Below, one piece after another: positions 1 through 21,739 of a DNA stretch of 24,529 bases; position 1 is the first letter of the stretch, and each line of letters starts with the position of its first letter. The DNA is from Microcoleaceae cyanobacterium. GTDB lineage: Bacteria > Cyanobacteriota > Cyanobacteriia > Cyanobacteriales > Microcoleaceae. The stretch is taken from positions 1-24,529 of the forward strand of contig JBOFUV010000072.1 of the NCBI GenBank assembly GCA_051652765.1. The letters are read 5' to 3'. The notes below the pieces were generated by a model. The model was not told the origin of the DNA. It did no database searches and worked only from the letters and a program-made list of their open reading frames with translations. Made by a program: the position numbers and the translations under genes.

Positions 1-704
1 AGACTAGCCAGCTTCTCGATGGTGGTGTCGGCACGAATGCCCTCGTCTTTTTCGATCAGATGCACTCCTTGCTTGCCGCTGACCTCAATCGGGACGATTT
101 CCTTATGCAACCAGCCCTGCTGCGTTGCCTCGGTTGCCCGCTCTTGAGAATACAGGGCGACCTCATCCAGTTCACTGCGGGAGACACCATAGGCTGCTGC
201 CAATCGTTCGGCCTGATCTCCCATCTTTTCAGATGTTGTTGGATCGCAAAGCCCATCAGAGACCAAGAGATCAATGAGCGGCTCAGATCCATTGAGCAGT
301 AATTTGCACCCCCATCTGACCCGATGTGAGAGCATCAAACCGGTTTGGGACATGGATTCTGTCCCTCCTGCCAGGACAATATCAGCTTCTCCTGCTGCGA
401 TCGCCATTGATCCATTCATCACACTCATCATGCCAGATGAACATACCATATCCACTGCATAGCCATTTGTGGTCTCGGGAATACCGGCTTTGAACGCAGC
501 TTGACGCGGTAATAACTGACCGTGGCCAGCGCGGAGGACATTGCCAAAGACATACAAATCCACCAATTCTCCAGATATCCCTGCCCGTTCCAATGCACTC
601 CGCATCACAGTTGCCCCCAATTCGACGGGGGAAACCTCTGCAAGCACTCCGCCAAAGCGACCCAAAGGAGTCCGCACTGCTGAAACAATGTAGGCTGACT
701 GCAT
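1..704 (-). CDS. phaA: Acetyl-CoA acetyltransferase (beta-ketothiolase PhaA), 5' part; runs off the left edge of the window
   Basis: Manual translation from the ATG at 704: MQSAYIVSAVRTPLGRFGGVL...GNVLRAGHGQLLPRQAAFKAGIP...VDMVCSSGMMSV...AGGTESMSQ...DEGIRADTTIEKL. This has the thiolase N-terminal motifs and the catalytic Cys motif and closely resembles cyanobacterial PhaA. GAGGAG SD just upstream (712-717). Absent from the ORF track because there is no stop in the window. Confidence 0.93.
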   Translation of the reverse strand, partial: MQSAYIVSAVRTPLGRFGGVLAEVSPVELGATVMRSALERAGISGELVDLYVFGNVLRAGHGQLLPRQAAFKAGIPETTNGYAVDMVCSSGMMSVMNGSMAIAAGEADIVLAGGTESMSQTGLMLSHRVRWGCKLLLNGSEPLIDLLVSDGLCDPTTSEKMGDQAERLAAAYGVSRSELDEVALYSQERATEATQQGWLHKEIVPIEVSGKQGVHLIEKDEGIRADTTIEKLAS

Positions 705-831: not shown

Positions 832-1917
832 CTAGCTATTTCCCAATCTGGCTGCTAAAAATTCTTTTGCCTGTTTCTTCCCGTCTTCGATCAGATGATT
901 GATGAATTTGGGGCTGCGGTCAAGCTTACTCTCATAGTTGAGGGAATTTTGTACGTCACTAGACATTTCAATGAATGGAATATAGTAAGGCTTGTCGTCT
1001 AAATCGACAAAAGATCTGGGGATTTTGATCGGCTCGCGAATCCCAATTGACTCTAGAAACTCCTCTTTATAAGCGCCTCCCAACAGCAAGTCGTTGAGTC
1101 GCTCCACCGATCGGAGGCTCTGAAATAAGGAAACATTTCCTTCCAATTCATTACGACGATCTAAAATATCGTCTGGCTGCACCGGGATCGAATCTCGGTG
1201 GGTTGGATTCAACTTAATCACCCAAATTTCCTGGGGAATATTGGCCGCCCCAACATTTGCAGGATCGATCAATTCAGTAATTGGGGGGTTGTCAGAAAAT
1301 ATGCCATCCCAGTAAGCGTCATTGCCAATTTCAACTGCCGGAAAAATATTAGGAATCGCACAAGAAGCCAAAATATGTTCGACTTTGATGGGTTCGCGAG
1401 ATGAGTTGAACATCCACAGTTTTCCAGAGAGAATATTGACCGCACCCATTAGTAGAATCGGGGCCTCTTGCTTGACCTCCGAGCAAGCTATCTCTTTGAA
1501 GTCAATATGAGCTTCTAACAATTCTTGAAAGTTGGTAAATCGATCGCGTAAACCCATGGTTGCCAAAGACATCCAACCCTTCAGAGCTTTGGATGCCGGA
1601 CTGACGACAAACTGGGGCAGAAGTCCTTTACCAGTTAACTCTAACGTTGAAATGACAAAGCTATTAAAAAAAATCTCTTGGGAGGTTTGGGCCGTATTAT
1701 CTTTCCAGAATGCGGTTAATCGCCCAACTGGATCTTCCCCTCTCTTCAAGGCATACCAAACCAAAGCTGCACCCAGTGCTCCACCGGATGTGCCGCTGAG
1801 GCTCACAATCTCATATCTGTCTTGAATGTTGTTTTCGAATAGGGCTTGAAGTGCCCCCGCTGTAAAGGCAGCGTGACTGCCTCCCCCTTGACAGGCTATT
1901 GCAATCTTTGTCCTCAT
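832..1917 (-). CDS. Patatin-like serine hydrolase (candidate PHA depolymerase)
   Basis: 361 aa with the oxyanion motif ACQGGGSHAAF, nucleophile elbow GTSGG (Ser44), ASCAIP motif and catalytic Asp in YWDG (Asp204). GAGG SD upstream. Co-oriented with phaA and 127 bp upstream of it. Confidence 0.9.
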   Translation of the reverse strand: MRTKIAIACQGGGSHAAFTAGALQALFENNIQDRYEIVSLSGTSGGALGAALVWYALKRGEDPVGRLTAFWKDNTAQTSQEIFFNSFVISTLELTGKGLLPQFVVSPASKALKGWMSLATMGLRDRFTNFQELLEAHIDFKEIACSEVKQEAPILLMGAVNILSGKLWMFNSSREPIKVEHILASCAIPNIFPAVEIGNDAYWDGIFSDNPPITELIDPANVGAANIPQEIWVIKLNPTHRDSIPVQPDDILDRRNELEGNVSLFQSLRSVERLNDLLLGGAYKEEFLESIGIREPIKIPRSFVDLDDKPYYIPFIEMSSDVQNSLNYESKLDRSPKFINHLIEDGKKQAKEFLAARLGNS

Positions 1918-2161
1918 GGAAATTCCTCAATAAAGTCAATGTTCAAGTACGTGTAAATTCGGGCCAAAACCACAGTTTCGCTGCAACACTATAACGGAGG
2001 AACTTTCCAGTACAAATCCGTATCAGAACTTGACTTAGTTCGGCGCAAAGCCGTAGCCATATCTTAGAAGAAATGCAAATACCAGCTTAGGCATTCAAGC
2101 GAACAGTATAAAGCATAAAAATCAGAAAATCATAGAAATTTTGGTCAAGTCAAATAAATTA

Positions 2162-2185
2162 CTAGCACTCTTTTTTGAGTGCTGA
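2162..2185. promoter_or_regulatory. CIRCE-like inverted repeat with a non-canonical 6-bp spacer
   Basis: CTAGCACTC-TTTTTT-GAGTGCTGA versus CIRCE TTAGCACTC-N9-GAGTGCTAA. Each arm matches 8/9, but the spacer is 6 rather than 9. Lies in the patatin/phaE divergent region. Confidence 0.3.
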
Positions 2186-2237
2186 GAGTATAGCGCTTGA
2201 CAGCAAAATTTCACAAGTTACAGTGCTGTCCCTAACA

Positions 2238-2251
2238 GTATGGAACAATAC
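2238..2251. promoter_or_regulatory. Putative NtcA box
   Basis: GTA-TGGAACAA-TAC(A) fits GTA-N8-TAC, near the middle of the patatin/phaE divergent region. No canonical TAN3T -10 element at ~22 nt on either side. Confidence 0.3.
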
Positions 2252-2546
2252 AGTGAGGAAGAAATATTAGAACGATATTCATAAGACCTGAGAAAACAAG
2301 TGACTAACGTCAACGAGAATGGAGATGGCCCAATAGGCCAGATGGCACAGCGGTTTTAAGTCGGTAAAAACACGGGATAATTATTAGATAAAGCAAAATT
2401 AAAGATGTAGGAAGTTCAGAGCAACATCTGTACCTGTCTGACTGATTGCAAGAGATCAAAACATGTTCTGGTTGGAGATTCATATCAGTTGGTGTACTGT
2501 TGAGGCATTACTTCCACTGGCTATAGTTTCGGGATAGGAATGACAA

Positions 2547-3695
2547 ATGGAAGAAAAACCAGATTTCTCGGTAGGAAACGCTGATCAATTCCCAAAAACC
2601 TGGGCTGAGGTCGGCACTCAGATGTTAAAAAACTGGTTTGATCTGATGGAGGTCACCGTTGGCAATCCTCCTGCAAAGGGAAAACCAGAACCAGAGTCTA
2701 TCCCCCAACCTGTTGTGGACTATCAGCAACTGCAGTTCCATTTGCTCAAACTTGCATTTGATACCTGGCAGGAGATGCTGCCAGGTATCGAATCTGGAGA
2801 GGACGGGCAAAACTCTCTCAACTATTACAGACAGAAACTGCGGGATCACACTCAGAAGTTCTCGGCAGGAACGCTTAAAAGTTGCCTGGAGCCAACTGCA
2901 CTGTGGCAAACCTATCTCAAAGAGATGCAGGCACTGAATCAACTGTGGGTTACTGCCCTGGGTGTATCAATCGATCCGACGAATCCAACATCAGCAACCC
3001 GCATCAGCAAATCCTGGATCGAGCTGAATAGCTCTTACTGGAACCTGGCATTTGAGAAAATTCCAGGCAATCTGGCACAGATGCCTCTATTAGGGCCCAA
3101 CCGTGACCTGAGCCATAAACTCATGCAAGCGTCCGATGCCTGGGCAAAACTCTACCCAGCAAGCATGGACTATCAGATGGTGCTGGCAAAGATTCAAATC
3201 CAATCTTTTGAGGAACTATTGCCAGAGCTAATCTCGTTGGCCAAAACCGGCGAAACGGTGAAAAACTGGCAGCAGTTTCAGCAACTTTGGGGTCGCATTG
3301 TGGATAAGGTCTTTGAGCAGGCGTTTTGTCTAGAAGAGAATCTCAAGGTTAGAGGGAAGTTCCTGAACGCCATCAACCACTACAAACTCTGTCAACAGGA
3401 ACTAACGGAAATCTGGATGAAGAGTATGAACCTACCTACCCGCAGCGAAATAGACGAAGTTCATCAAAGCATCTATGAACTGCGAAAACAGGTGAAGCAT
3501 CTGAAAAAGAACCTGACCCAATTGGAAGCCCAAGCCCAAACGACTCCACAAAAAACTGACGAGCTAGGAAAAGATCATGTTGCCCTTTCAGATCATGCAG
3601 AACTTTCAGGATACAGTCAAAGCCCACCCTGCGATCGCCAAAAAAATGGTCAGAGGGATGGAGCATTTGAGCAACCTGCGAGAGGACAATATTGA
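2547..3695 (+). CDS. phaE: Class III PHA synthase subunit PhaE
   Basis: 382 aa, Trp/Gln-rich helical protein with the PhaE C-terminal signature MNLPTRSEIDEVHQSIYELRKQVKHLKK. Directly upstream of phaC and overlapping it by 119 nt. Confidence 0.93.
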   Translation: MEEKPDFSVGNADQFPKTWAEVGTQMLKNWFDLMEVTVGNPPAKGKPEPESIPQPVVDYQQLQFHLLKLAFDTWQEMLPGIESGEDGQNSLNYYRQKLRDHTQKFSAGTLKSCLEPTALWQTYLKEMQALNQLWVTALGVSIDPTNPTSATRISKSWIELNSSYWNLAFEKIPGNLAQMPLLGPNRDLSHKLMQASDAWAKLYPASMDYQMVLAKIQIQSFEELLPELISLAKTGETVKNWQQFQQLWGRIVDKVFEQAFCLEENLKVRGKFLNAINHYKLCQQELTEIWMKSMNLPTRSEIDEVHQSIYELRKQVKHLKKNLTQLEAQAQTTPQKTDELGKDHVALSDHAELSGYSQSPPCDRQKNGQRDGAFEQPARGQY

Positions 3696-4680
3696 AATTG
3701 GTGTTTCTCCCAAAGTAGCAGTCTATCGCGAAGATAAGGTCATTCTTTATCGCTTTCAACCCAAGGTTGACCATCCTTTAAAGATTCCAGTTCTGATTGT
3801 CTATGCTTTGATCAATCGTCCCTTCATGGTTGATCTCCAAGCCGAGCGATCACTGGTAGCCAATTTACTCAACCTCGGACTGGATATTTACTTGATTGAT
3901 TGGGGCTATCCAACCCGAGCCGATCGCTGGCTCACCCTGGATGATTACATCAATGGCTACATCGATAACTGTGTTGACTTCATCCGACACCATCACAGTC
4001 TAGAGAAAATTAATCTGCTAGGAATTTGTCAGGGGGGCACATTTAGCCTGTGCTACAGCGCCATCTATCCCGAAAAAGTGAAAAACCTGATTACGATGGT
4101 GACTCCGGTCGATTTTCAGCTCTCCCACGCCCTTTTGAATATGCAAGGAGGCTGCACCTTGGGGACAGAGGCCATCAATATTGATCTGATGGTGGATGCC
4201 TTAGGCAACATCCCCGGTGACTATCTCAATGCCGAGTTTTTGATGTTAAAGCCTTGGCAATTGGGCGTTCAGAAATATCTGGATTTTCCAGACATCATGG
4301 ATGACGAAGACAAGTTAATGAACTTTCTGAGAATGGAGAAATGGATTTTCGATAGTCCAGATCAAGCGGGTGAAACCTATCGCCAATTTCTCAAGGACTT
4401 CTATCAACAAAATAAGCTAATTAAGGGGGAAGTGAGGATTGGAGATCACTCAGTCAACCTAGACAAAGTTTCCATGCCTACCCTAAACGTATATGCAGAA
4501 AAGGATCACCTGGTTACCCCAGCCTCATCTTTAGCCCTAGGGCAATACATCGGCACAAAAGACTACACAGTAAAATCGTTTCCAGTTGGGCATGTCGGCA
4601 TGTATGTCAGTAGTAAAGTCCAACAACATCTTCCCCCTGTGATCGCTGAGTGGCTGAGAGCAAGAGCTGAAGGCCAATAA
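3577..4680 (+). CDS. phaC: Class III PHA synthase catalytic subunit PhaC
   Basis: 367 aa with PVLIVYALINRPFMVDLQ, IDWGYP, PhaC box GICQGG (Cys151), RMEKWIFDSPD, Asp in AEKDHLV and His in GHVG. MLPF N-terminus with AGGA SD upstream. Confidence 0.97.
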   Translation: MLPFQIMQNFQDTVKAHPAIAKKMVRGMEHLSNLREDNIEIGVSPKVAVYREDKVILYRFQPKVDHPLKIPVLIVYALINRPFMVDLQAERSLVANLLNLGLDIYLIDWGYPTRADRWLTLDDYINGYIDNCVDFIRHHHSLEKINLLGICQGGTFSLCYSAIYPEKVKNLITMVTPVDFQLSHALLNMQGGCTLGTEAINIDLMVDALGNIPGDYLNAEFLMLKPWQLGVQKYLDFPDIMDDEDKLMNFLRMEKWIFDSPDQAGETYRQFLKDFYQQNKLIKGEVRIGDHSVNLDKVSMPTLNVYAEKDHLVTPASSLALGQYIGTKDYTVKSFPVGHVGMYVSSKVQQHLPPVIAEWLRARAEGQ

Positions 4681-4694
4681 TTAAAACTAACTAA

Positions 4695-5030
4695 TTAATT
4701 GCTTTTAGTCTGCTCTGCCATTTTCTGTGTCGTTTGAAAATAGTTTTCCCAAAATTGCTTCTGGGTTTCGACTGCTAAATTTGCCGATACTCTTTGAGCA
4801 TCGAGGACTGAACTAATCAGTTCTTGTTGAAAACTAAGCATTTTCTCAAAGCTTTCAGAAAGATTTATCTGAATTGCTTTATCAGAAAAGCTTTGCATCC
4901 AAGAGTCAACCAGCTTCTTTTGTGAATCTATCAACTGCTTCTGAGACTCGTCCCAGAGTTGCGTTGCTCTTTGCTGGGACTCATTAAATTGATTTTGAGC
5001 ATTCTTGAAAGATTCGGTAGCACTACTCAT
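4695..5030 (-). CDS. Probable phasin (PHA granule-associated protein, PhaP-like)
   Basis: 111 aa Gln-rich, apparently all-helical amphipathic protein (QKQLIDSQKKLVDSW...QKQFWENYF). GGAGG SD upstream. Convergent with phaC across a 14-bp gap. The call rests on size, composition and context. Confidence 0.7.
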   Translation of the reverse strand: MSSATESFKNAQNQFNESQQRATQLWDESQKQLIDSQKKLVDSWMQSFSDKAIQINLSESFEKMLSFQQELISSVLDAQRVSANLAVETQKQFWENYFQTTQKMAEQTKSN

Positions 5031-5416
5031 TGAAGAATTTCCTCCAATACGATTGGTGTTTTTAAGACGAGTACGCTTTTGTAATCACAGCTTAGTATTG
5101 CACACATTCCCCATGTCAACATTCCAATCTTGACAATACTCCGGACAGGTTTAATGACCGACGACAGAATAGGGCTTTTAGCTCTATTCTATCGAGAACT
5201 GACCGACGAGAAAGCAAGGATTGCAGCCTTATCTCAAAAAGTACCTGAACTTCTGAACTATTGTCTTGAACGAGCTTAGAACCCATCGCTTTTGATGGCG
5301 GGACATGTAAAATAAGCAGATGGCTAACGTGTTCATCAGCAATTCAGCCATATCAACGCCTACCGCTAAGACTAAAATAAAAAACAGATTTGAACTATAC
5401 CCTTTCACGAGGAGGC

Positions 5417-6493
5417 ATGATGCCTATTCCCTGCCACAGTTATCTAGCGACTGCCATTAACGCCAATGAGGCTCCCTGTGTTTCGCTCTACATGCCCACC
5501 CACCGGAGCCATCCGGACAACGTCCAAGATCCAATCCGGTTTAAGAACCTGGTAAAGCAGGTTGAAGAGTCGCTCAACCAAGCTTATGCGTTAGGCGATG
5601 TCCAGGCTCTGCTTGAGCCACTGCACCAGTTGCAGGACGACGACACGTTCTGGAACCATACCCTAGATGGGCTGGCAATCCTCACCTCTTCAGCCCGATT
5701 CGACCTATTCAAGATTTGTCGAACAGTGCCTGAGTTGTCTGTAGTGGCAGACACGTTTCATCTCAAACCGCTCCTGCGATATGTCCAGTCGGCGGATCAG
5801 TTCCACGTATTAGCGGTGGCTGAGGACAAACTGGCCCTGTTTGAAGGGAATCGGTATGCTCTAGGCTCCATCTCTGTTCCCACGATTTCGGGGACTGCCC
5901 GAACCCCCGCCCCGTCAGATCCAACCGCTGAGGTTGTAGGCGGCAGGGGGATCGAAGGGTACTTCCGAGCAATTGATCAGGCGATCACCGAGGAAATCTC
6001 GAAGCTGTCTGAAATCCCAGTGGTGCTGGCTGCTCTGCCAGAGAATATTGGCCAGTTCCGGGCGATCGCCAAGAATCCATACCTGCTCCCAGACAGCATC
6101 GTCGGCGATCCGTTTGCCTTCGATACCCATGAACTGCAAGTTCGAGCCTGGGCTATTGTGGAGCCGCACTATCTGTCTCGACTAGCAAAGCTGAGTGAAG
6201 ATTTTGGCATGGCGGTTAGCCGTCAACAGGGCACAGGCGATCTGTCCGATGCGGCACAGGCTGCGATCGCTGGGCGTATTGGCACGTTGCTGATCGATGC
6301 CGACCAGATTCAGCCTGGGACAATTGATCCAGTTACCGGCGGGATCAAGACCCAGAACCTCGACGATCCGACAGTTGACGACAAACTTGACGACCTAGCT
6401 GAACTCGTGCTGAAAACTGGCGGCGAGGTAGTGATCGTTCCAACTGAGCGGATGCCCACGGAAACGGGTTTGGCTGCAATCTTCCGCTATTGA
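5417..6493 (+). CDS. Bacterial archaeo-eukaryotic release factor family protein (baeRF3-type, Balon-like)
   Basis: PCVSLYMPTHRSHPDNVQDPIRFKNL, FWNHTLDGLA, VADTFHLKPL, YFRAID and C-terminal DDLAELVLKTGGEVVIVP...TGLAAIFRY (eRF1 domain-3-like end). AGGAGG at 5410-5415 favours a start at ATG 5417 or 5420 over the TTG at 5390. Confidence 0.82.
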   Translation: MMPIPCHSYLATAINANEAPCVSLYMPTHRSHPDNVQDPIRFKNLVKQVEESLNQAYALGDVQALLEPLHQLQDDDTFWNHTLDGLAILTSSARFDLFKICRTVPELSVVADTFHLKPLLRYVQSADQFHVLAVAEDKLALFEGNRYALGSISVPTISGTARTPAPSDPTAEVVGGRGIEGYFRAIDQAITEEISKLSEIPVVLAALPENIGQFRAIAKNPYLLPDSIVGDPFAFDTHELQVRAWAIVEPHYLSRLAKLSEDFGMAVSRQQGTGDLSDAAQAAIAGRIGTLLIDADQIQPGTIDPVTGGIKTQNLDDPTVDDKLDDLAELVLKTGGEVVIVPTERMPTETGLAAIFRY

Positions 6494-6731: not shown

Positions 6732-8405
6732 TTATGAGCCAAGGATAAACACAGCGAACATCCCAATCACCCCGGCAACGACTAGGAGAATACCGATCAC
6801 AGGTAATAACCGGCGAAGTACAATTCCCTCTTCTCCTGCTAATCCCACGGTTGCGACTGCCGCTACAATATTGGACACTGCAATCATGTTTCCGTATGCA
6901 GAGCCTGTAAGCTGCAATGCCAGAATCCAGGATGGCAATACACCAATTTGTTCAGCAACCCCAAACTGGAATAAACCAAACATCATGTTGCTGACCGTTG
7001 CACTTCCGGCCACAAAACAGCCTATCGTACCAATGACAGGAGCAAAGAAAGGCCACACTGCTCCCGCCAGACTCGAAGCCCCATCTGCCAATGTCAAGGG
7101 CATACTTTGCAGTCCTGCGTCGTTCACACCAGAGTTCATAAAGATCTTTGCCAATGGCACGGAGGCTCCGATTGCCAACGCTGTTGATACAATTGATGTC
7201 GTAGCTCCGGCGATCGCCCGTCTCACCTGCCCCGACTTCATCCGATAGAGAAGACAGGTGATGACCACTACAAGAATAAAAATGCTTCCAGGCAGAAATA
7301 GCGGCTGGGTTGAAATGCTAACCGATGTCCCAAAAATATTTAAAAAGTCAATTCGAGCGGATTGTAACCATTCGCGAAAGGGTAGGAAACGGAGCCGGGA
7401 AAGGATCAGAAACACACTTAACAGAACGTAGGGTGCCCAGGCATACAGCGCTGTCATGTTAAAAGGTCTCTGAGACACCGAGGGAGTACTTGCTCCCGCC
7501 CAAGAAGAAGGCCACTCCCGTTGATCTGGGAAGTCCCATTGCTCCCTTGGGACTAAAAACCCGCGCTTGGCAGCAGGAACCACAATCGCCAGACCCAGCA
7601 AACCCCCCAACAGGGTTGGGAACTCTGGGCCAATCAGGACTGCGGTAAGGGTGTAAGGAATGACAAATGCAAGTCCAGCAAATAGAGCAAACTTAGCCGC
7701 CAACAAACCATCTTTCCAGGATCGACGCTGACCAAAATAAGCAGTTATGGTCATGATCAACAACAAAGGCATAAAAATCCCGATTAAGCCCTGGATTAAA
7801 CCTGTCTTTGCCCCAATATCAGCCAGGTAATCCGAGAGGGTTAAACCCAAGCGAGCTAGTTCCTGCTCAACCGCAGCGTTATCTTCCAAACCGCTTTCCA
7901 AACCAATCAGAATGGGAACCCCCACTCCACCAAAAGCAGAGGCCGTGGATTGAATGATCAGCATCGCAATCACAGCAGCCATCGCTGGAAATCCAATTGT
8001 AACCAGCAGCGGCACACAAATCACAGCAGGTGTCCCGAAACCAGAAGCCCCTTCGATAAAACTGCCAAATAACCAGGCAATGATAATCACTTGAACCCGG
8101 CGATCCTGAGAGATATTCAGTAATCCCTGGCGAATCTTGCCAATCGCACCAGACTCTTGAAGGATATTGAGCAGCAAGATCGCACCAAACACAATGTAGA
8201 GAATCTCAAGGGTAACGATCAGTCCCTCAACTGTAGACGCAGCCACATGAACAAAGGGCATTTTCCAGACCAGCAATGCAATCAGCACAGTCACCCCGTA
8301 GGCAGCAGACATGGCCTGAGTTGCCGAAAGATTGACAACGACCAGAAGCAAAAATGCAACGATGATCGGTGCAAATGCTAGAAGCGAGTAGAAAGCTAGT
8401 TGCAT
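6732..8405 (-). CDS. Lactate/glycolate permease (LctP/LldP/GlcA family)
   Basis: 557 aa polytopic membrane protein with family motifs ISQDRRVQVIIIAWLFGSFIEGASGFGTP, GPEFPTLLG and FVAGSATVSNMMF. Confidence 0.92.
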   Translation of the reverse strand: MQLAFYSLLAFAPIIVAFLLLVVVNLSATQAMSAAYGVTVLIALLVWKMPFVHVAASTVEGLIVTLEILYIVFGAILLLNILQESGAIGKIRQGLLNISQDRRVQVIIIAWLFGSFIEGASGFGTPAVICVPLLVTIGFPAMAAVIAMLIIQSTASAFGGVGVPILIGLESGLEDNAAVEQELARLGLTLSDYLADIGAKTGLIQGLIGIFMPLLLIMTITAYFGQRRSWKDGLLAAKFALFAGLAFVIPYTLTAVLIGPEFPTLLGGLLGLAIVVPAAKRGFLVPREQWDFPDQREWPSSWAGASTPSVSQRPFNMTALYAWAPYVLLSVFLILSRLRFLPFREWLQSARIDFLNIFGTSVSISTQPLFLPGSIFILVVVITCLLYRMKSGQVRRAIAGATTSIVSTALAIGASVPLAKIFMNSGVNDAGLQSMPLTLADGASSLAGAVWPFFAPVIGTIGCFVAGSATVSNMMFGLFQFGVAEQIGVLPSWILALQLTGSAYGNMIAVSNIVAAVATVGLAGEEGIVLRRLLPVIGILLVVAGVIGMFAVFILGS

Positions 8406-8888: not shown

Positions 8889-9626
8889 TTAATCTACATA
8901 ATCAAACAACACGGTATTCATGTAGTAATCCGCCCATTCAGAACCGAAGGCTTTTTCCAAAACCCGACGGGTTTTGTCATTGCGCTGTTGTTGAATACAA
9001 TAATGGCGTTGAGCCGCACTGAGTTGTGGCTGCTGTTCCGCAGGAACTGGAGTCTGGGTGCTTGCATAGTGACAGTGAACCTGAAGGTAAGATTCAACAA
9101 TGTCCAAGAACCGGGTCTCTTCCTGAACTGTTGTGGGTCGAATGAATAAGCAAAATTCAGAGAAAATATCTCCCCAAGCTGGAATTTCTCGGGGCTGTGC
9201 AAAGCTGTGAATCGGCAGTCTTGCTAGCTCGGCATGGTAAGCCGGTGGCAAAACTCGCTCAGGATTGGTCGGAGAAAGATCGGCGATCGCCGCACTGATC
9301 TGACCCCGTCCTCCAACTAAATCTGTGCCAAAGGTTGGTAGGGCATAATTTGCACGGGGAAACATGACACAGTGCAGAATATCCAGACTATGTCCGACCT
9401 TGGCTAGCTCCAAGTGCATCTTGCGAAATTGAGGCGTTTGATAGCACTTGTTCTCAATGGTTAACTTCTCTCCCTCCAAGCGGCCCTCCACATATCCCAA
9501 CTCCGCCGGAAAATCGTAAGGTTCTAAGTCAAAATGACGGCTCCAAGTTGCCTCAATCCGATTAGCAAGTTGACGAATCAAGGGATGTTGTTGCTCTCTT
9601 AGAGATGAAATTGAGCTGTTTAGCAT
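8889..9626 (-). CDS. pcyA: Phycocyanobilin:ferredoxin oxidoreductase
   Basis: 245 aa with [59 protein letters not shown] and [13 protein letters not shown]. Confidence 0.97.
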
Positions 9627-9751
9627 TAAAGAGTGCGCGAGTGATGGGTCAAAACTGGAATTGAACTATAGTAATGATAGTAACGATAAGAAGTTCTAGA
9701 TCCTATCTTGAACTAAGCATATCACTAGGCTAGAGCTAGAGAGGAGGGCTA

Positions 9752-9922
9752 ATGTTTGGTTTAGGATGGCCAGAGGCGGGTATAATTCTAGTCGTCGCGT
9801 TGTTGATCTTCGGCCCCAAAAAAGTCCCCGAACTGGGTAAGACTCTGGGTCAAGCACTGAGAGGATTTCGAGATGAATTGAAAGGTTCAGCCTCAAAGTC
9901 AGGGTCAGACACTCAAGACTAG
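9752..9922 (+). CDS. tatA: Twin-arginine translocase subunit TatA/TatE
   Basis: Manual translation (56 aa, below the ORF-track cutoff): MFGLGWPEAGIILVVALLIFGPKKVPELGKTLGQALRGFRDELKGSASKSGSDTQD. TM helix, FGPKK hinge and amphipathic helix. GAGGAGG SD at 9741-9747. Confidence 0.95.
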   Translation: MFGLGWPEAGIILVVALLIFGPKKVPELGKTLGQALRGFRDELKGSASKSGSDTQD

Positions 9923-9943
9923 TCAGGCTTTGATCGGTTCAGG

Positions 9944-10067
9944 ATCTTTGCGTAGAAATCTTTGCAGAATAAAATCTTCGCACACAAATCTTTGCATAAA
10001 ATCTTTGTATAACTTTGCATAAGGTCTCAGCGGACATTTAAAGCGGACATTTAAAGCGGATATTTAA
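9944..10067. repeat. Two adjacent short tandem repeat arrays
   Basis: About 6 degenerate ATCTTTGCA-core units (9944-10022, period 11-16), then 3 copies of the 13-mer AGCGGA(C/T)ATTTAA (10029-10067). Confidence 0.85.
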
Positions 10068-10074
10068 AAATGCT

Positions 10075-10097
10075 CGTTGTTGGCAACAAAACAATTT
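10075..10097. repeat. Dispersed 23-bp repeat, copy 1
   Basis: CGTTGTTGGCAACAAAACAATTT is 21/23 identical to 21773-21795. Confidence 0.7.
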
Positions 10098-10290
10098 CGA
10101 TTTCCCAAAATTCTGCTTAAAATGCCGGAAGCTTTGACGCGGGTTCTGATTCGTTCAAGGTTTACTAACATTAATTTTGGGGGTGACCGCTGAACGACAA
10201 TTCGACTCAGATCTTACCCAAGCTCCGGGCAAGCTGCTAAGGTATTAACTTGAGATCTGGTAACTTGCTGTTCACTCCTGTAACGATTCT

Positions 10291-12435
10291 ATGGTTTGTT
10301 TTCTCCTTGAAGTTGGTACCGAAGAACTTCCCGCTCCCTTTGTTGAAAGCGCGATTCAGCAATTGCAAGGACTAATCCCAGCCGCCTTGGAGGAGCAATT
10401 TCTTACCTACAGTTCTCTCCAAGTTTACGGTACTCCTCGGCGATTGGCTGTTGTGATCGAGGGACTTCCCGAGCAGCAACCGGATCGGGAAGAGGAACTG
10501 AAAGGCCCCCCCGCATCCACTGCTTTCAAAGATGGCAAACCCACAAAAGCCGTAGAGGGATTTGCCAAAAAACAGGGCGTTGACCTGAAGGATCTAGAAG
10601 TTCGTCCGACAGATAAGGGCGACTTTGTCTTTGTGCTGAAGAAAATTGCAGGCCGTCCCACCTCAGAACTGCTGACTGAACTGATTCCCCAGTGGATTAC
10701 CCAGCTAGAAGGCAAACGATTCATGCGTTGGGGAGATGGGGATTTGCGGTTTCCTCGCCCCATTCGTTGGCTGGTGGTGTTGTTAGACAACCAAGTTTTG
10801 CCCGTAACGTTGGTGAGTGGCTCCGATCAGATTAAGAGCGATCGCCAGTCTCAAGCCCACCGCGTTTTACATCCCGAACCGATCACCGTATCAACTGCAC
10901 AAGAGTATGTGACCGCTTTACGAAAAGCCTTTGTAGAGGTTAATCCTGAGGCCCGAAGGACAAGAATTGAGCAGGGGATTCAATCCGCTGCAAAAACTGT
11001 TGGAGGAACCCCAGAGATTCCTGCTGATTTACTCAATGAAGTGGTCAATTTGGTGGAATGGCCGACGGCAGTCGTGGGAAAGTTTGATGAATCCTTTCTG
11101 AATCTTCCCACCGAAGTGATTACTACAGTCATGGTGACTCACCAACGCTATTTTCCAATCTCAGAACGAGATACCAAATCAACTTTAAAGCCCTATTTTG
11201 TCACGATTTCTAATGGTGATCCCGCTAAATCAGACGGGATTGCGGCAGGCAATGGTCGGGTGATTCGAGCCCGGTTGGCAGATGGGCAATTTTTTTATCA
11301 TTCAGACTTGAAGCAACCCTTAGAACGTTACTTGCCCCAGTTGGAAACGGTTACCTTTCAAGAAAATTTGGGCACGGTTCGAGATAAGGTCAACCGCATT
11401 TGTCAGGCTGCCAACTTAATCTTAGAACAGTTAAAGATTGCCGATCCAGAACGCAGTCAAATTCAACGGGCGGCCCTGCTCTGTAAGACGGATTTGGTGA
11501 CTCAAATGGTGTATGAATTTCCTGAGTTGCAGGGCGTTATGGGAGAAAAATATGCTCGGGCGGGGGGTGAACCGGAAGCCGTTGCCACGGCAATTTTTGA
11601 ACATTACTTACCCAGGGATGCGAGCGATGGTTTACCCAAAACCTTAGTCGGTCAAGTTGTGGGATTGGCAGATCGATTAGACACCTTGGTGAGTATTTTC
11701 GGGTTGGGAATGATTCCCTCTGGCTCCTCCGATCCCTTTGCTTTACGGCGAGCTGCGAATGCTGTTCTAAACATTACTTGGATGGCAGATCTGCCCTTGA
11801 ATTTGCATGAACTTTTGGGGCAACTGGCGACAGAATTTATCCAATCCCATGAACAGTCCTTGCCCGATTTAATCCCTCAACTTTATGATTTTTTCCTCCA
11901 ACGGATTCGGACGTTACTCCAAGATGAAAACGGGATTAATTATGACTTGGTCAATGCAGTGTTGGGAGAGAATGATCCCGAGTATACGGAGCGGGCATTA
12001 AAAGATTTACTTGATGTGCGCGATCGCGCCCTGTTCCTACAATTCATTCGTCAAGATGGCACCCTGGAAAAAATTTACGAAACCATCAACCGTTCTACGC
12101 GGCTAGCCAAACAGGGGGATTTGGAGACCACTCAACTCAGTCCGAAAGCCGTGGTTCAGCCTAAATTGTTTGAAAAATCCTCAGAACAGGGTTTCTATGA
12201 TGCCTTGCTCCAACTCCTGCCCAAAACTCAAACCGCTCAGTCCACTCGCAACTATCGCCAGTTCGTGGAGGGTTTTGTAGAAATTGCCCCCACGGTGAGT
12301 CGGTTTTTTGATGGGCCAGAGAGTGTGCTGGTGATGGATAATAACCCTGAGATCAAACGTAATCGGCTCAATCTGTTGGGATTGCTGAGGAATCATGGCC
12401 GGGTGTTGGCGGATTTTGGAGCAATCGTTCGGTAA
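10291..12435 (+). CDS. glyS: Glycine--tRNA ligase beta subunit
   Basis: 714 aa with [23 protein letters not shown]...[40 protein letters not shown] and NRLNLL. Confidence 0.98.
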
Positions 12436-12493
12436 GGGTTCAGCAACAGGATACAATCAGGGTTGATTTTCCTCAATCACCCGTTAACGTTTT

Positions 12494-13855
12494 ATGCCCA
12501 AGGCCCATGTGATCGGTTTAGGACGATCTGGAAATGCTGCTGCACGAGTGTTAAACTCCCAAGGCTGGGAAGTTGTCGTCAGCGATCGCAATACTTCAGT
12601 AACCCTCGAACCGCAGAAGCAATCCCTAACTCAGGAAGGGGTGACCGTTCACTTGGGGGAGAACTTTGAACCCGATGCCTCTTTGGACTTAGTCGTTGCC
12701 AGCCCAGGAGTGCCCTGGGACATTGCCCCGCTGCAAAAGGCCCGTACCCTAGGGATTGAAACTATTGGGGAAATGGAACTGGCGTGGCGCAACTTGAACG
12801 CAGTACCCTGGGTTGGGATCACCGGAACCAACGGCAAAACCACAACAACTGCTTTAATTGCAGCCATATTTGAAGCTGCCGGACTCCACGCTCCGGCCTG
12901 TGGCAACATTGGCTATGCGGCCTGTGAATTGGCCCTCGAACAATGCAGCGCCTCTAAATCTCTGGATTGGGCGATCGCTGAAATTAGCAGCTACCAGATT
13001 GAGTCTGCTTCTACCTTGGCCCCCCGCATTGGGGTTTGGACAACGTTTACCCCCGATCATCTCAGCCGTCACTATACCCTAGATAATTACTACGCTATCA
13101 AAGCTAAGCTCCTAAACCAGTCTGAACTTCAAGTGATCAACGGGGATGATCCCTACCTGCGAGAACACACTGTTCAGCAATGGCCCGAGGGTTGCTGGAC
13201 AAGCGTGACCGGGAGAGCCAATTTGCTGGGGTCTCCGGAGCTAGGGGTTTACCTGGAGAACGGTTGGGTGATGCAAAACGGCGAAGCCATTGTTGAAGCC
13301 AACACTCTCTCCATGGTCGGCAGTCACAATCAACAAAATCTCTTGATGGCTGTCGCCGCCGCTCGGTTGGCGGGAATTGATCGGGCGGCAATCTCCCAGG
13401 CGATCGCGACTTTCCCCGGTGTTCCCCATCGGCTTGAATCCATTTGCACCTGGCAAGGCATTCACTGGATCAATGACAGCAAAGCCACCAACTATGATGC
13501 TGCCGAGGTGGGGTTGAAAGCGGTTCAGGCTCCTGTGATTCTGATTGCCGGAGGAGAAGCCAAAGCCGGGAATGATACCCAGTGGGTTCGTCAAATTCAG
13601 GAAAAAACAGCCATGGTTTTGCTAATTGGGGATGCTGCCCAGACCTTTGCTCAACGGTTACAACAGGTAAATTACTCAACCTTTGAAATTGTAGAAACCC
13701 TGGAACGTGCGGTTGCCCGAGCCCAAGAGTTGGCCCTGCAGTTGCAGGTTAGTGTTGTACTGCTCTCCCCAGCTTGCGCCAGTTTTGACCAATTTAATAG
13801 CTTTGAAGATCGGGGCGATCGCTTTCGCCAATTATGTCTGGAGCTGCTGAGCTAA
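12494..13855 (+). CDS. murD: UDP-N-acetylmuramoyl-L-alanine--D-glutamate ligase
   Basis: 453 aa with [39 protein letters not shown] and [12 protein letters not shown]. Confidence 0.98.
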
Positions 13856-14242
13856 AATTCATCCTTGCTCTTCTAACTTCCAGCAAAACAGGATTTCGTG
13901 AAGTTCTCAAATTCCTCTAGATGCTCCAGAGGATTCCAGTTGGATCGTTAAAGAATTGAGGTTAGAATGAACCAAGACCATCTCTGAACTCTGATTTTTC
14001 GATACGTTCCTACTTCAGTGAAATGACTGATGGGTCTGGATGAATTGGGTGCTAAAAATAACAGTTGAAGTTGACCAGATACCCTTAAGATTGATCTGTT
14101 TAATTCTTCATCTACTAGGGTAGTAAAACTCAACAGATCTAGGGAGACTTTTAGTTAATTGGATCACCTTGATGAATCTATGAATATTGGTTTTCCAGTG
14201 GTTCTGGATGCCTCTGAGAATAAAGACTCAGTAATTCTGTTG

Positions 14243-14275
14243 GAAAGTTTATCTGAAAGTTTATCTGAAAAGTTT
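14243..14275. repeat. 12-bp tandem repeat upstream of the flippase
   Basis: GAAAGTTTATCT x2 plus partial GAAAAGTTT. Confidence 0.7.
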
Positions 14276-14356
14276 CAACCCTTTTTCTAGGGGTTTGAAT
14301 CCAACAAACTGCTCCGTTTATCCCTCGTTTTCTAGTTCAGGCCCACCTATTTCACT

Positions 14357-15778
14357 ATGAAAAAACTACTGGCACGTTTGGATCTTTCCTATATCTACGC
14401 CTTCGTTGGAGAAGCCACTTTAGCTCTAACTTTGGCGTTTTTTATTGTTCTAGCTCGTGAACTTGGGCCGGAACAGTACGGGGTTTTTGCTGCTGCTGTT
14501 GCCCTAGCTGCGATTCTTTCCCTGTTTATTCAGTTTGGGATACCGCCCCTGATCAACCGTGAAGTTGCCGCCCACCCTGAAGCAGGGCAACGCATGACGG
14601 TTAAAGCGCTCTTGGTTGAAGCCCTCAGTTCTTGCGGGGTGTTTCTGATCCTCCTACCCCTGGTTTGGGTTCTCGGCTATCGAGGCGAGAGTATTCTAAT
14701 CTGTTACCTGGCCGTGCTGGCAGAGGTGTGGCGAGCAATGATTATGACCCTCCGTAATGTTGCCAAGGGGGTGGGATGGTTCAGGGCTGAGAGTGTGGCA
14801 GTCACCGTTGAACGGGCAACAACCATTGTGATTTCCTGTTGGGTTTTATTTCAGACCCAAAACTTGGTTCTGGTTATGGCAACGACAATGCTAGTCAGAG
14901 GACTGAATGCCTTGGGGTTATTTTATTACCTCAATCGTAGACTGAATCTCTGGTCTGAGATTAGCTGGAAAGGGTTGTGGGAAATTGTGCAAAAATCCTA
15001 TCCTTTTGCCATGGCTGGAGTTTTGTGGATTATTTATTACCAAGTTGATGTGGTCATGCTTGGGGTGCTGTCTTCAAAGGCAGAAACTGGATTCTATAGT
15101 GCCTCTTACCGAATTCTCGAAATTTTTTCAGCCCTGCCCCGCGTCATTTTTTATGTGATTTACACCCGATTTTCTAAATATCATGTCAAAGACCCTAATA
15201 AGTTGCCAGAGCAAATTTACAAAGGCACTCGTTTACTGCTAGGAGTTGTGATGCCAACACTCTTAATTGCTGGCTTTTTTCAAGAAACTCTTGTGAAGGG
15301 TCTCTATGGAGCTGAATTCTCTCGGTCTGTGGCATCTTTGTCTATCCTCTTACCCAGTTTAAGTATTAAGATGATCGGAGGTCTGGCCAATCATCTTTGC
15401 CAAGCAACGGAGCACGAGAAGAAACTGCCGCCTCTTTTACTAGGGGCTGCTCTGACAAACGTTGGGATTAATTTCTTACTGATTCCTCGTTTAGGCTCTC
15501 CTGGAGCAGCTCTAGCCACTTTTATCAGTGAATGTATCTTAACAACACTGACCTTAATCTTGATCAGAAAGATTGGCTACAAACAGATTGGGATTCGCTT
15601 GGGTTGGCTGACAATTTTTAGTCTAGTGGTTACCGGAACTCCTTCTTTGCTAATCTTCACCCCCCTCCCTCTTGGGGTTGGGATCGCCCTAATCCTTGGC
15701 GGGTGTGCTGCGATTTTCGCCCTAATGCGTCCCAATCAGTTTATGCGATTAGACTCACCACAGGTCACTGTTAATTAA
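14357..15778 (+). CDS. Wzx-type polysaccharide flippase (MOP superfamily)
   Basis: 473 aa with many TM segments and motifs LARELGPEQYG, IYYQVDVVML...GFYSASYR and NFLLIPRLGSPGAALAT. Confidence 0.9.
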   Translation: MKKLLARLDLSYIYAFVGEATLALTLAFFIVLARELGPEQYGVFAAAVALAAILSLFIQFGIPPLINREVAAHPEAGQRMTVKALLVEALSSCGVFLILLPLVWVLGYRGESILICYLAVLAEVWRAMIMTLRNVAKGVGWFRAESVAVTVERATTIVISCWVLFQTQNLVLVMATTMLVRGLNALGLFYYLNRRLNLWSEISWKGLWEIVQKSYPFAMAGVLWIIYYQVDVVMLGVLSSKAETGFYSASYRILEIFSALPRVIFYVIYTRFSKYHVKDPNKLPEQIYKGTRLLLGVVMPTLLIAGFFQETLVKGLYGAEFSRSVASLSILLPSLSIKMIGGLANHLCQATEHEKKLPPLLLGAALTNVGINFLLIPRLGSPGAALATFISECILTTLTLILIRKIGYKQIGIRLGWLTIFSLVVTGTPSLLIFTPLPLGVGIALILGGCAAIFALMRPNQFMRLDSPQVTVN

Positions 15779-15963
15779 GGGCTAGTTTCAAACTTTGATC
15801 AGGAAAACTATTCAGTCTGCTAGCGATCGCGCTCACCTGTAAGTCAATCTCGGCTGGGAGCATGGTCAACCGTTTTATATTCAATTTATATAAATTTGTT
15901 TATAAATTTGTTATGTAAATTTGTATAAAATTGAGAACATATGCAGCGGTTTTTGAATTAGTA

Positions 15964-16100
15964 ATATCAAATCCGGCTGATTGCTGGTGATCAGGGAAGT
16001 GTGGAGGCGATCGCGAAGCGTTGCGCTAATATCAGCCGCCACAAAGGAGGCCAGACCCCTTCACCCCTTTTTTCTACGGTTATTCAAACGGATTTGATAT
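15964..16100. mobile_element. MITE-like element, 137 bp, with perfect 12-bp terminal inverted repeats
   Basis: ATATCAAATCCG (15964-15975) ... CGGATTTGATAT (16089-16100). Non-coding, GC-richer interior containing one HIP1, in AT-rich flanks. Confidence 0.65.
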
Positions 16101-16504
16101 GAGATTTAAGACCGATAAACTGAATTTAAACTTTAGCTCTTACGCTCAGAATAATCGTGGCAGTTAACAAGAGTGAGTTCAGGGTTGGCTAAAACCCCTG
16201 TTCCGTCTGACTCCTGTATGGCTTGACCCTCCCTTTCTTGTCTAAGTAAAAGCTACTCAAGAGGTTCATACTCCCTAAATTGATTGGTTGTTGAGTGATA
16301 TCTGAGGTGACAAAGTATAAGAATTTTGGGTGGTTTTTGGGTGGAAATCTTATACTTTATTGAGTTTTACTCATCTGAAACCTTTGTGTAGCAGTTGGTA
16401 TAGGCTGTTTCAACAAACCCCCAGTAGCTTTTAACAGATTTCCTGACCTAGACTTGTATTACTCAAGTTCTAGATTGTTCCTCTTCATCAACCACCGTGG
16501 ATCT

Positions 16505-16990
16505 ATGAAAAAAGTTTTGTTTCTATGCACAGACAACTACCACCATAGCCGATTCTCTGAATATCTATTCAATGGTTGGGCAATTCAGCAAGGGCTGAAT
16601 TGGCGAGCAGAGTCTCGCGGTTTAGCTGTTGACCGCCTCAGCAATAGTATTGGAGTCATCGCACCAAAAGTAGTTACAGGCTTGATAAACCGAGGAATCA
16701 CACTCCATGATTACATTCGACAGCCGTTACAAGTGTTTGAAGTTGATTTCAAAGCTGCGAATCGGGTGATTGCAGTTGAGGAAACCACTCACCGTTCTCT
16801 GATGGCTACACGACATCCTGGGTGGGTCAACTCAATTGAATATTGGAATGTTGACGATCCAGACGAGGATGCAATCGAGTCTTCCCTAGACCAACTAGAG
16901 CAACAGATTCAACACCTGCTAGCTGAATTAAAAACAGCTCAACTCTCAGAACTGCCCACCGAAACTCAAGCATTGATGTTCATGGATTAA
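16505..16990 (+). CDS. Low-molecular-weight protein tyrosine phosphatase/ArsC-fold protein with a degenerate P-loop
   Basis: MKKVLFLCTDNYHHSRFSE...AESRGL...ANRVIAVEE...WNVDDP. Start taken at ATG 16505 rather than TTG 16454. The CX5R motif reads CX5H. Confidence 0.8.
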   Translation: MKKVLFLCTDNYHHSRFSEYLFNGWAIQQGLNWRAESRGLAVDRLSNSIGVIAPKVVTGLINRGITLHDYIRQPLQVFEVDFKAANRVIAVEETTHRSLMATRHPGWVNSIEYWNVDDPDEDAIESSLDQLEQQIQHLLAELKTAQLSELPTETQALMFMD

Positions 16991-17100
16991 CATCTAGGAA
17001 TCTGATTTGAAGTGTTAACGTGAAGTGGGCATCTTGACCACTCTAGTCTCCCTTTTCAAGGGGGATCATTCTGTACCGGATCTCAACGAAACAGGCTGTA

Positions 17101-17203
17101 ATATTCAACTCCGTTGATGTGCATCCTGTAAACGTTTTTTGAAAGCCGAGCAGCGCTTGGCTTTCAAAAAAGTAAAATACGAGTAATCAACCGGATTCGA
17201 TAT
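17101..17203. mobile_element. Second, degenerate MITE-like element in opposite orientation, carrying an internal hairpin
   Basis: The reverse complement of the right end (17185-17203) is ATATCGAATCCGGTTGATT, 17/19 identical to ATATCAAATCCGGCTGATT at 15964. The left end ATATTCAACTCCGTTGA is a decayed TIR. Interior hairpin TTTTTTGAAAGCCGAG-cagcg-CTTGGCTTTCAAAAAA. Confidence 0.55.
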
Positions 17204-17221
17204 CAGTATTAACTCAGCAGC

Positions 17222-18052
17222 ATGTCTCAGGAAGAATTTAGTTCAAGAAATGCTCCTCCCAGTAACCGACAGTTGATTACTCTGCTGGGGATTTTTGTGG
17301 CATTGATCATTGGATTAATTGCCCTATCCCTGCTGTTGGTCGATGTTTTTATTAGTAAACTTCCGACCCAAGTTGAACAGCAACTTGGACGTTTAGTCGT
17401 TCCGGTCTATGAACAATTGGCTCAACCCTCAAGCACTCAAACAACTCTGAATCAACTGTTAGACCAGTTAGAAGCTCATTTACCTATAGACTTAGGCAAC
17501 AATCGAGAGTATCAGATTTTTTACATTCCAGAGGAAACGGTAAATGCGATCGCAATTCCAGGCGATCGCATCTTAATCTTCAAGGGTTTACTGACGAAGG
17601 TTGAGTCGGAAAATGAGTTAATGATGATTCTCGGCCATGAACTCGGCCATTTTGCCCATCGCGATCACCTACGAGGGCTAGGGCGAGGGTTAGTTTTACA
17701 AGCCGTTCTCTCTACGATATTTCCTAACATGGGTTCCTTGGAGTCCACCGCAGTCGCCCTGTCCAATGCCCGGTTTTCCCGATCTCAGGAACGACAAGCA
17801 GATCAGTTCGGCCTGACCTTGCTGAATGCAAACTATGGTCATGTAGCCGGGGCAACGGATTTTTTTGAGCGTCTGAGTCGAGAGCAAAAAATGGACTTGG
17901 CGTTTTTCAACACCCATCCCACGTCCAGGAACCGCGTGAACCACTTACAACGGTTGATCCAGCAGCAAAATTATCCCATTGGTTCCCGAGTGCCCTTGCC
18001 AGAGTCCTTGCAAACTCCAGCACCTCAATCTACTGATCAATCACGGGAGTAA
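17222..18052 (+). CDS. M48-family zinc metallopeptidase with an N-terminal membrane anchor
   Basis: 276 aa with NAIAIPG, HELGH (HEXXH), [10 protein letters not shown] and THP motifs. Confidence 0.92.
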
Positions 18053-19955: not shown

Positions 19956-20223
19956 AGGTCACACTTACTTAAGGGTCGCTCAATTATCAATCAAAGGGCA
20001 TTTTAGCTCAAGACGGCTATAGTTTTAGAGAGAACGTATCAAGGGAAAAATCCAGTACGGACTGAACGGTTTAGGCTCTTTCAAAACTGCTTAAACGCAT
20101 CCGTTAAACACCACGACTGCAATCAAAACCATAAGCTTAATGGTTAAACCATCCCATACCTTGAAAAAGAGTCAACGAAAAACAGGCAACGTGAATATGC
20201 CATAATGATCCGGCAATCCTTTA

Positions 20224-21297: not shown

Positions 21298-21358
21298 ATC
21301 AATTGGCAAATAACTAGTCAACAATGACTAAACAATTAACAAAACCCAGCAAAACGAT

Positions 21359-21529: not shown

Positions 21530-21625
21530 GGTTAGTTTTTCCTATTAATTCATCTTTCTACTTGTAGTTTAACTTCTAAATCGTTTTTTTGACCATAAAT
21601 ATTGGGTTTATTTTGCGGACTAAAT

Positions 21626-21674: not shown

Positions 21675-21739
21675 TTTTAGTTAGTAATCTGTTCAGATTC
21701 AATCTCTGCTTAAGCTGATAGTTAAAAACTTCCTTTAAC

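What the first reader, a model, noticed from the sequence alone, without database searches (positions are those of the whole stretch)
832..1917. Patatin-like hydrolase inside the pha cluster: candidate for the elusive cyanobacterial PHB depolymerase
Seen: an intact patatin (GGGSH, G-T-S44-G-G, D204-G) lies between phaA and phaEC. It is the first gene of an apparent patatin-phaA unit and shares a divergent promoter region with phaEC. Known: to my knowledge no intracellular PhaZ has been firmly established in model PHB-producing cyanobacteria. The haloarchaeon Haloferax mediterranei, which also uses a class III PhaEC synthase, has a granule-bound patatin-like depolymerase, PhaZh1. The IAIACQGGGSH N-terminus here resembles that subfamily as I recall it. 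Inference: this is a granule-associated PHB depolymerase that would close the cyanobacterial PHB cycle.
Basis: partly seen in the sequence, partly recalled or inferred. Interest (0 to 1): 0.85.

Follow-up and report, generated by a model that had tools for sequence, protein, structure and literature searches.

The report
Slr0060/PhaZh1-type patatin inside PHB cluster
This intact esterase gene sits among a cyanobacterium's bioplastic (PHB) synthesis genes and likely encodes a PHB-cutting enzyme; its close relative in the model cyanobacterium was already proposed for this job and deleted without the expected effect, so the new part is only the kinship to a proven archaeal PHB-cutting enzyme and the repeated gene linkage.

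Summary
832-1917 (-) is an intact patatin with G11-G13, S44 and D204. It heads patatin-phaA-phaB, faces away from phaE-phaC, and has a phasin-like gene beyond. It is 39% identical over full length to Haloferax PhaZh1, a depolymerase proven in vitro, and shares its clade (SH-aLRT 98). In 401 cyanobacterial genomes, 15 of 16 carriers have phaC, against 9 of 385 non-carriers. But the candidate is not new: it is 60% identical to Synechocystis Slr0060. Slr0060 was co-purified with granules, proposed as the PHB depolymerase and knocked out in 2020; the mutant did not retain PHB and made somewhat less. That test was weak, because wild type did not consume PHB either, and the PhaZh1 knockout was also silent in vivo. 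Best reading (0.6): a granule-surface Ser/Asp hydrolase that releases 3-hydroxybutyrate from native PHB. That it closes the cyanobacterial PHB cycle is not shown: this genome has no 3HB dehydrogenase over the cut-off, and 9 of 24 phaC genomes lack the gene. New here are the Slr0060-PhaZh1 link and repeated pha, bdhA and permease neighbourhoods, which point to an in vitro assay.

The parts
832..1917 (-). Patatin-like Ser/Asp hydrolase of the Slr0060/PhaZh1 clade (G11-G13, S44, D204); no leader before the first strand of the fold
1..704 (-). 5' part of phaA (acetyl-CoA acetyltransferase); continues on contig C123 and is followed there by phaB
1918..2546 (.). 629-nt divergent intergenic region, presumed to hold the promoters of both units; NtcA-like GTA-N8-TAC at 2238-2251 is a weak lead
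2547..3695 (+). phaE, class III PHA synthase subunit
   Evidence: TIGR01834, 196 bits, cut-off 155
3577..4680 (+). phaC, class III PHA synthase subunit
   Evidence: TIGR01836, 526 bits, cut-off 365
4695..5030 (-). Likely cyanobacterial phasin PhaP, convergent with phaEC; no Pfam or NCBIfam hit, name inferred
   Evidence: conserved beside pha genes in 9 loci; its profile finds one 78-87-residue match in 5 of 5 phaC genomes; same layout as the Limnospira phaECP unit (PMC8400943 passage); no source name PhaP was returned
6732..8405 (-). LctP-family monocarboxylate permease; possible accessory gene, link weak
   Evidence: against:

Best explanation
The gene encodes an intact patatin-fold Ser/Asp hydrolase of the PhaZh1/Slr0060 clade that likely sits on PHB granules and likely cuts native PHB to 3-hydroxybutyrate, probably as a turnover or conditional release enzyme rather than the sole route of PHB reuse. 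Shown: the fold, the intact catalytic residues, the clade, the place at the head of patatin-phaA-phaB opposite phaEC, and the near-restriction to phaC genomes. Inferred from patatin chemistry and PhaZh1: S44 attacks the polyester bond, D204 acts as the base, the glycine loop holds the oxyanion, and water releases 3HB. Inferred from Slr0060: granule localisation and expression together with the synthesis genes under nitrogen starvation. Inferred and least certain: the fate of 3HB. Some relatives sit beside bdhA (and adc) and could oxidise it to acetoacetate. This genome has no recognisable BdhA, so 3HB would be excreted or re-activated by an unknown enzyme.
For: (1) 139 of 360 aligned residues are identical to PhaZh1. 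PhaZh1 was identified as WP_004060664.1 = E6P09_RS15675, the tag PMC11218638 gives for PhaZh1. G12/S44/D204 align with PhaZh1 G16/S47/D195; that these three are essential in PhaZh1 is recalled from Liu 2015, which I could not read. (2) Window protein, Slr0060 and PhaZh1 fall in one 55-row clade, SH-aLRT 98, apart from all 7 outgroup patatins (quick tree). (3) In 401 class genomes: 15 have both genes, 1 patatin only, 9 phaC only, 376 neither. The link holds inside families (4 of 4 carriers among 7 phaC genomes of 45; 4 of 5 among 6 of 40). (4) 12 of the 16 closest loci have a pha gene beside it. Several distinct layouts occur: phaABEC-patatin (L087), permease-phaP-patatin-phaABEC (L096), lctP-phaP-patatin (L017, L089), phasin-like-ORF-patatin (L050, L051) and patatin-adc-bdhA (L097). 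An SDR lies directly upstream in 3 of 4 haloarchaeal records. (5) Slr0060 co-purified with granules and co-fractionates with PhaE, PhaC and PhaP (PMC7203880; PMC6878006). (6) No classical intracellular PhaZ (TIGR01849) or Esterase_PHB was found in this genome.
Against: The slr0060 deletion did not retain PHB and made somewhat less PHB than wild type (PMC7203880). The phaZh1 deletion had no effect on in vivo mobilisation, where PhaJ matters more (PMC4823750). Its place in the biosynthetic operon is unusual for a degrading enzyme. No BdhA (best 191 bits, cut-off 307) or acetoacetyl-CoA synthetase (170 bits, cut-off 521) was found, and no adc or GntP-type permease homologue. 9 of 24 phaC genomes lack the gene, and 1 carrier (G393) has no phaC or phaE found. 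4 of the 16 closest loci have no pha neighbour. At 39% identity, substrate is not guaranteed, and only one clade member has known activity. Genomes are related, so the count statistics overstate.
Confidence: 0.6

Rival explanations
1. A granule-associated helper of synthesis rather than a degrading enzyme: it releases or trims nascent chains or short oligomers, or acts as a 3HB-CoA/acyl-CoA thioesterase that frees CoA during PHB synthesis.
For: It is the first gene of the phaA-phaB unit in 8 of the 16 closest loci. The slr0060 mutant made less PHB, not more. Slr0060 is degraded in the light together with PhaC and PhaE (PMC8603205).
Against: Its only characterised clade-mate is an efficient depolymerase in vitro. 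Neighbours bdhA, adc and GntP-type permeases point to free 3HB as the product. Granule number in the slr0060 mutant was like wild type.
Confidence: 0.25
2. An ordinary patatin phospholipase or lipid esterase that travels with pha genes for regulatory reasons, or strips lipid from granule preparations.
For: All close solved folds are phospholipases (PlpD Z 23.4, CapV Z 22.0, patatin Z 20.9). Several homologues have no pha neighbour (L004, L007, L008, L015, L044-L049, L052).
Against: Those structures are only 14-22% identical, against 39% for PhaZh1. The genome's other patatin falls outside the clade. A general lipase would not be missing from 376 of 377 phaC-negative genomes.
Confidence: 0.12

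Closest known systems
Slr0060 of Synechocystis sp. PCC 6803 (P0122)
   Same: 60% identical over 363 aligned residues. Sister subclade within one mainly cyanobacterial clade. Same catalytic residues. Reported granule-associated and found only in PHB-producing cyanobacteria (PMC7203880).
   Different: Slr0060 lies in slr0058-slr0061, away from phaEC; here the gene is inside the pha cluster and the slr0058 homologue is elsewhere (contig C97). The glycine loop ends in H here and in PhaZh1, and in Q in Slr0060. Neither protein has been assayed, as far as my searches show.
PhaZh1 (HFX_6464) of Haloferax mediterranei, patatin-like intracellular PHA depolymerase
   Same: 39% identity over full length, same clade, same glycine loop, Ser and Asp, no signal peptide; the host uses a class III PhaEC synthase.
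   Different: PhaZh1 is paired with bdhA; no BdhA was found in this genome. The window protein is 40 aa longer, with extra residues mainly near 280-315. Its activity is untested.
Patatin-like phospholipases (PlpD, CBASS CapV/CapE, plant patatin)
   Same: Same fold and Ser/Asp dyad.
   Different: 14-22% identity; CBASS_lipase score 18.5 against a cut-off of 200; different clades and contexts.
Classical intracellular PHB depolymerases (TIGR01849 PhaZ, NF050089)
   Same: Proposed role only.
   Different: No match to these models in the NCBIfam scan; these are alpha/beta hydrolases (established knowledge), a different fold.

Membership tests
Patatin-like hydrolase (PF01734) | Pfam match over the gathering cut-off | tested here: met
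   72.2 bits, cut-off 27.7
Patatin-like hydrolase (PF01734) | Glycine loop, G-x-S-x-G nucleophile and D-G motif intact and conserved | tested here: met
   G12, G13, G42, S44, G46, D204 and G205 invariant in 92 of 92 aligned homologues
Patatin-like hydrolase (PF01734) | Patatin fold | tested here: met
   model pLDDT 92.7; PlpD Z 23.4, rmsd 3.5, 244 aligned
PhaZh1-type PHA depolymerase | Same clade as PhaZh1, full-length homology | tested here: met
   (SH-aLRT 98; quick tree, no bootstrap)
PhaZh1-type PHA depolymerase | Catalytic Gly/Ser/Asp equivalent to PhaZh1 G16/S47/D195 | tested here: met
   essentiality of these residues in PhaZh1 is recalled, not read
PhaZh1-type PHA depolymerase | Intracellular, no signal peptide | tested here: met
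   first core strand starts at residue 3; the most hydrophobic 19-residue window (1.43) is core strand 152-170; no dedicated predictor was run
PhaZh1-type PHA depolymerase | Linked to bdhA | tested here: not met
   no bdhA in the window and none over the cut-off in the genome; present beside the relative in L053/L097. This is a context feature, not a catalytic one
PhaZh1-type PHA depolymerase | Located on PHA granules | not testable with these tools
   reported for the 60% homologue Slr0060
PhaZh1-type PHA depolymerase | Hydrolyses native PHB to 3HB | not testable with these tools
   needs an assay
Slr0060 homologues | High full-length identity and one clade | tested here: met
   60%; 36-row clade, SH-aLRT 95. 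Strict orthology was not tested; some genomes hold two copies
Slr0060 homologues | Confined to PHB-producing cyanobacteria | tested here: met
   15 of 16 carriers have phaC; close homologues also occur outside cyanobacteria
Classical intracellular PhaZ (TIGR01849) | Profile match | tested here: not met
CBASS CapV lipase | NF041079 over the cut-off | tested here: not met
   18.5 bits against 200

The most novel reading that the evidence does not exclude
Slr0060 and PhaZh1 belong to one cross-domain family of patatin PHB depolymerases that usually comes with a way to dispose of 3HB (BdhA, Adc or a monocarboxylate permease). In cyanobacteria without BdhA it would vent PHB as excreted 3-hydroxybutyrate under conditions not yet tested, such as dark anoxia. 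PHB would then be a redox and overflow valve rather than a reusable carbon store, which would explain the silent knockouts.
Probability: 0.2. Interest if true: 0.75.

Novelty: new member of a known kind. Interest (0 to 1): 0.42.

Why it matters
How cyanobacteria break down PHB is still open in the papers I could search, and it bears on photosynthetic bioplastic yield. The one published candidate, Slr0060, was left as function unknown after a knockout under conditions where wild type did not consume PHB. Showing that it is a full-length clade-mate of a proven depolymerase, and that its relatives repeatedly sit among pha, bdhA and permease genes, gives a reason to reopen it with the PhaZh1 granule assay. 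The window gene itself is one more member of that family, not a new candidate.

Tried and rejected
1. LctP as a dedicated 3HB exporter. It lies near the cluster in the window and in L005, L006, L013, L017 and L089. But only 3 of the 11 same-class genomes with LctP have phaC, and none of 8 other LctP loci has pha genes; some look glycolytic or fermentative by eye. Kept as a weak lead.
2. RNA evidence. One run with a 0.06 share of words, contigs only, 90-99% alike, so a relative; it says nothing on operon structure.
3. Promoter scan: 7 sites against 3.6 +/- 1.9 in shuffles, not informative. An NtcA-like box occurs in 4 of 8 intergenic regions at different positions.
4. A strongly amphipathic granule-binding helix: none stood out.
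5. Solved structures by sequence: no hit at E below 0.05.
6. PhaJ/MaoC route: only a weak partial hit below the cut-off in this genome.
7. ESM Atlas on the phasin-like ORF: only weak leads.
8. Naming the phasin through a database name failed.
9. Earlier findings of this scan: three look-ups returned nothing.
10. The careful tree did not finish, so the quick tree is cited and no one-clade test was run.
11. No complex prediction was run, because no protein-protein binding is claimed.

Full report
Observation. The ORF at 832-1917 (-) is an uninterrupted 361-aa patatin (PF01734 E 8.6e-20) with the stated motifs: G11-G13, S44 in G-T-S-G-G, and D204-G. It is followed after 127 nt by phaA, which runs off the window. 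Contig C123 of the same genome repeats the last 45 residues identically and carries the rest of phaA and then phaB. Class III phaE and phaC face away across 629 nt. A 111-aa gene converges on phaC. It is likely the phasin PhaP: it is conserved beside pha genes in 9 loci, its profile finds one small protein in 5 of 5 phaC genomes, and Limnospira has the same convergent phaECP layout (PMC8400943, passages). No database name confirmed it. The genome (99.97% complete) has one other patatin, of an unrelated type.

Relation to PhaZh1. A tblastn of plasmid records put haloarchaeal proteins first. The H. mediterranei hit is WP_004060664.1, tag E6P09_RS15675, directly downstream of an SDR whose best family is 3HB dehydrogenase. 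PMC11218638 (passages) names E6P09_15675 as PhaZh1 and E6P09_15680 as BdhA. Identity is 139 of 360, E 1e-68. G12, S44 and D204 align with G16, S47 and D195; that these are essential in PhaZh1 is recalled from Liu 2015, which is not held. PMC4823750, PMC7137286 and PMC11205408 (passages) state that PhaZh1 is granule-bound and degrades native PHA to 3HB in vitro, and that its deletion did not affect mobilisation in vivo.

Relation to Slr0060. A phylum search found homologues at 60-77% identity in several cyanobacteria. In L050 and L051 the homologue lies in a row of phasin-like gene (PF05597, E 2e-8), small ORF, patatin and a further ORF. A protein search returned P0122, which NCBI and UniRef name Slr0060 of Synechocystis sp. 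PCC 6803; it is 60% identical to the window protein, E 5e-163, and 36% to PhaZh1. Koch et al. 2020 (PMC7203880; passages and sections 14 part 1, 17 and 20 read) report that Slr0060 was isolated with PHB granules and is found only in PHB-producing cyanobacteria, and they proposed it as the intracellular depolymerase. Its knockout did not retain PHB and made less PHB during chlorosis. They also found that PHB per culture volume stayed constant during resuscitation in all strains, wild type included, so the test could not reveal a depolymerase. PMC6878006 (passages) places Slr0060 with PhaE, PhaC and PhaP. PMC8603205 (passages) shows light- and redox-dependent degradation like that of PhaC and PhaE. 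So the candidate, the granule link, the phylogenetic restriction and the knockout are all in print. The 5 papers holding 'PhaZh1' and the 5 holding 'slr0060' do not overlap. Searches (listings only, apart from the papers named) showed no established cyanobacterial depolymerase. Subscription papers are not covered.

Tree and fold. In a quick ML tree of 69 proteins the window protein, Slr0060 and PhaZh1 share a 55-row clade (SH-aLRT 98). Its sister is a 6-row clade with a different N-terminal motif, and all 7 outgroup patatins fall outside. The window protein and Slr0060 are in sister subclades of a 36-row, mainly cyanobacterial clade (95). The AlphaFold model (pLDDT 92.7) has the patatin fold, with best matches at 14-22% identity; no clade member is solved.

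Co-occurrence. In 401 genomes of the class, 16 carry the gene and 24 carry phaC; one fragment with three stops (G109) was left out. 15 have both, 1 the patatin only, 9 phaC only and 376 neither. The exception, G393, is a 460-contig assembly whose patatin starts about 400 nt from a contig end; it keeps phaB and the phasin-like gene, but no phaE or phaC was found. The link holds within families (hypergeometric P 2e-4 and 8e-4 in two), though kin are not independent. In the 301-genome phylum sample, all 13 strong hits were phaC-positive. Pooling both samples, 22 of 23 carriers have phaC and 22 of 35 phaC genomes have the gene. Seven phaC genomes without it were checked with the Pfam model: 5 had only other patatins and 2 had none. 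The genome samples and the loci partly overlap and are not separate evidence.

Neighbourhoods. Of the 16 closest full-length loci (L003-L018), 8 show the window's layout, 12 have some pha gene nearby and 4 have none. Other layouts: phaA-B-E-C-patatin in one row (L087, a more distant 37% copy); GntP-type permease, phasin, patatin, phaABEC (L096); lctP, phasin, patatin (L017, L089); and patatin-acetoacetate decarboxylase-3HB dehydrogenase (L053/L097; bdhA over the cut-off). Outside cyanobacteria, a GntP-type permease occurs in 9 of 17 loci and lies directly upstream in those I could read (one search was cut; several loci come from related assemblies). It lies downstream in 2 of 3 in-clade alphaproteobacterial plasmid records. 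An SDR lies upstream in 3 of 4 haloarchaeal records. Of 4 sister-clade plasmid records, 1 had such a neighbour. That GntP-family permeases include a 3HB permease is recalled; the P. putida PP_3074 passage (bioRxiv 10.1101/2020.07.04.188060) shows such a permease exists beside bdhA, but orthology was not tested. Most loci of the Slr0060 subclade (L044-L049, L052) have no pha neighbour within 1.5 kb.

Mechanism. Most likely a soluble enzyme on the granule surface uses S44 and D204 with the glycine loop to hydrolyse native PHB to 3HB, as PhaZh1 does (0.6). The steps from granule binding onward are inferred. What happens next is open. This genome has no BdhA or acetoacetyl-CoA synthetase over the cut-off, no Adc, only a weak MaoC hit and no classical PhaZ, so a textbook cycle cannot be drawn. 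Rivals are a helper of synthesis or thioesterase (0.25), supported by the operon position and the lower PHB of the knockout, and a plain lipase (0.12).

Verdict. A real, well-placed gene and a new member of a known kind. The headline idea was published and partly tested for its 60% homologue. The added value is the Slr0060-PhaZh1 kinship and the context evidence, which justify a direct biochemical test. Interest 0.42.

Noticed in passing
window 3577-3695: The phaE reading frame overlaps the start of phaC by 119 nt in another frame; in L043 the two genes do not overlap.
   Followed up: no
window 5390-6493 (+): baeRF-family release-factor-like gene (ribosome hibernation factor family below cut-off) lies between the phasin and lctP; no homologue in the loci compared.
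   Followed up: partly
window 6732-8405 (-); L005, L006, L013, L017, L089: An LctP permease recurs beside pha clusters or the patatin (in pieces in L005 and L089), but most cyanobacterial LctP genes are not pha-linked.
   Followed up: partly
L053 / L097 (G197): A cyanobacterium with a patatin-adc-bdhA row: a possible PHB to 3HB to acetoacetate to acetone route.
   Followed up: partly
L087 and L089 (G452); L009; L010: Some genomes hold two copies, distant or adjacent; this fits the idea of redundant homologues.
   Followed up: partly
L096 (G185): A GntP-type permease and a phasin-like gene lie next to a divergent patatin, opposite a phaABEC row.
   Followed up: partly
window 2238-2251 and 2164-2183: An NtcA-like GTA-N8-TAC and a short inverted repeat lie in the divergent region; neither is clearly above chance.
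   Followed up: partly
L005, L006, L010, L012: A CLC-family channel gene recurs near the pha cluster.
   Followed up: no
L007, L008: A contig labelled Candidatus Gracilibacteria carries a patatin almost identical to that of a Hydrococcus record; possible misbinning.
   Followed up: no
L028; P0160, P0183, P0205: Syntrophales, Smithella and Methylocaldum homologues nest inside the Slr0060 subclade, suggesting transfer; direction not tested.
   Followed up: no
window 20224-21297 (+): A 357-aa ORF with no Pfam match.
   Followed up: no
window 8889-24185: The rest looks like housekeeping: bilin reductase, glyS, a MurD-like ligase (by eye), flippase, LMW phosphatase, M48 and S9 peptidases, and a Wzc-like protein.
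   Followed up: no
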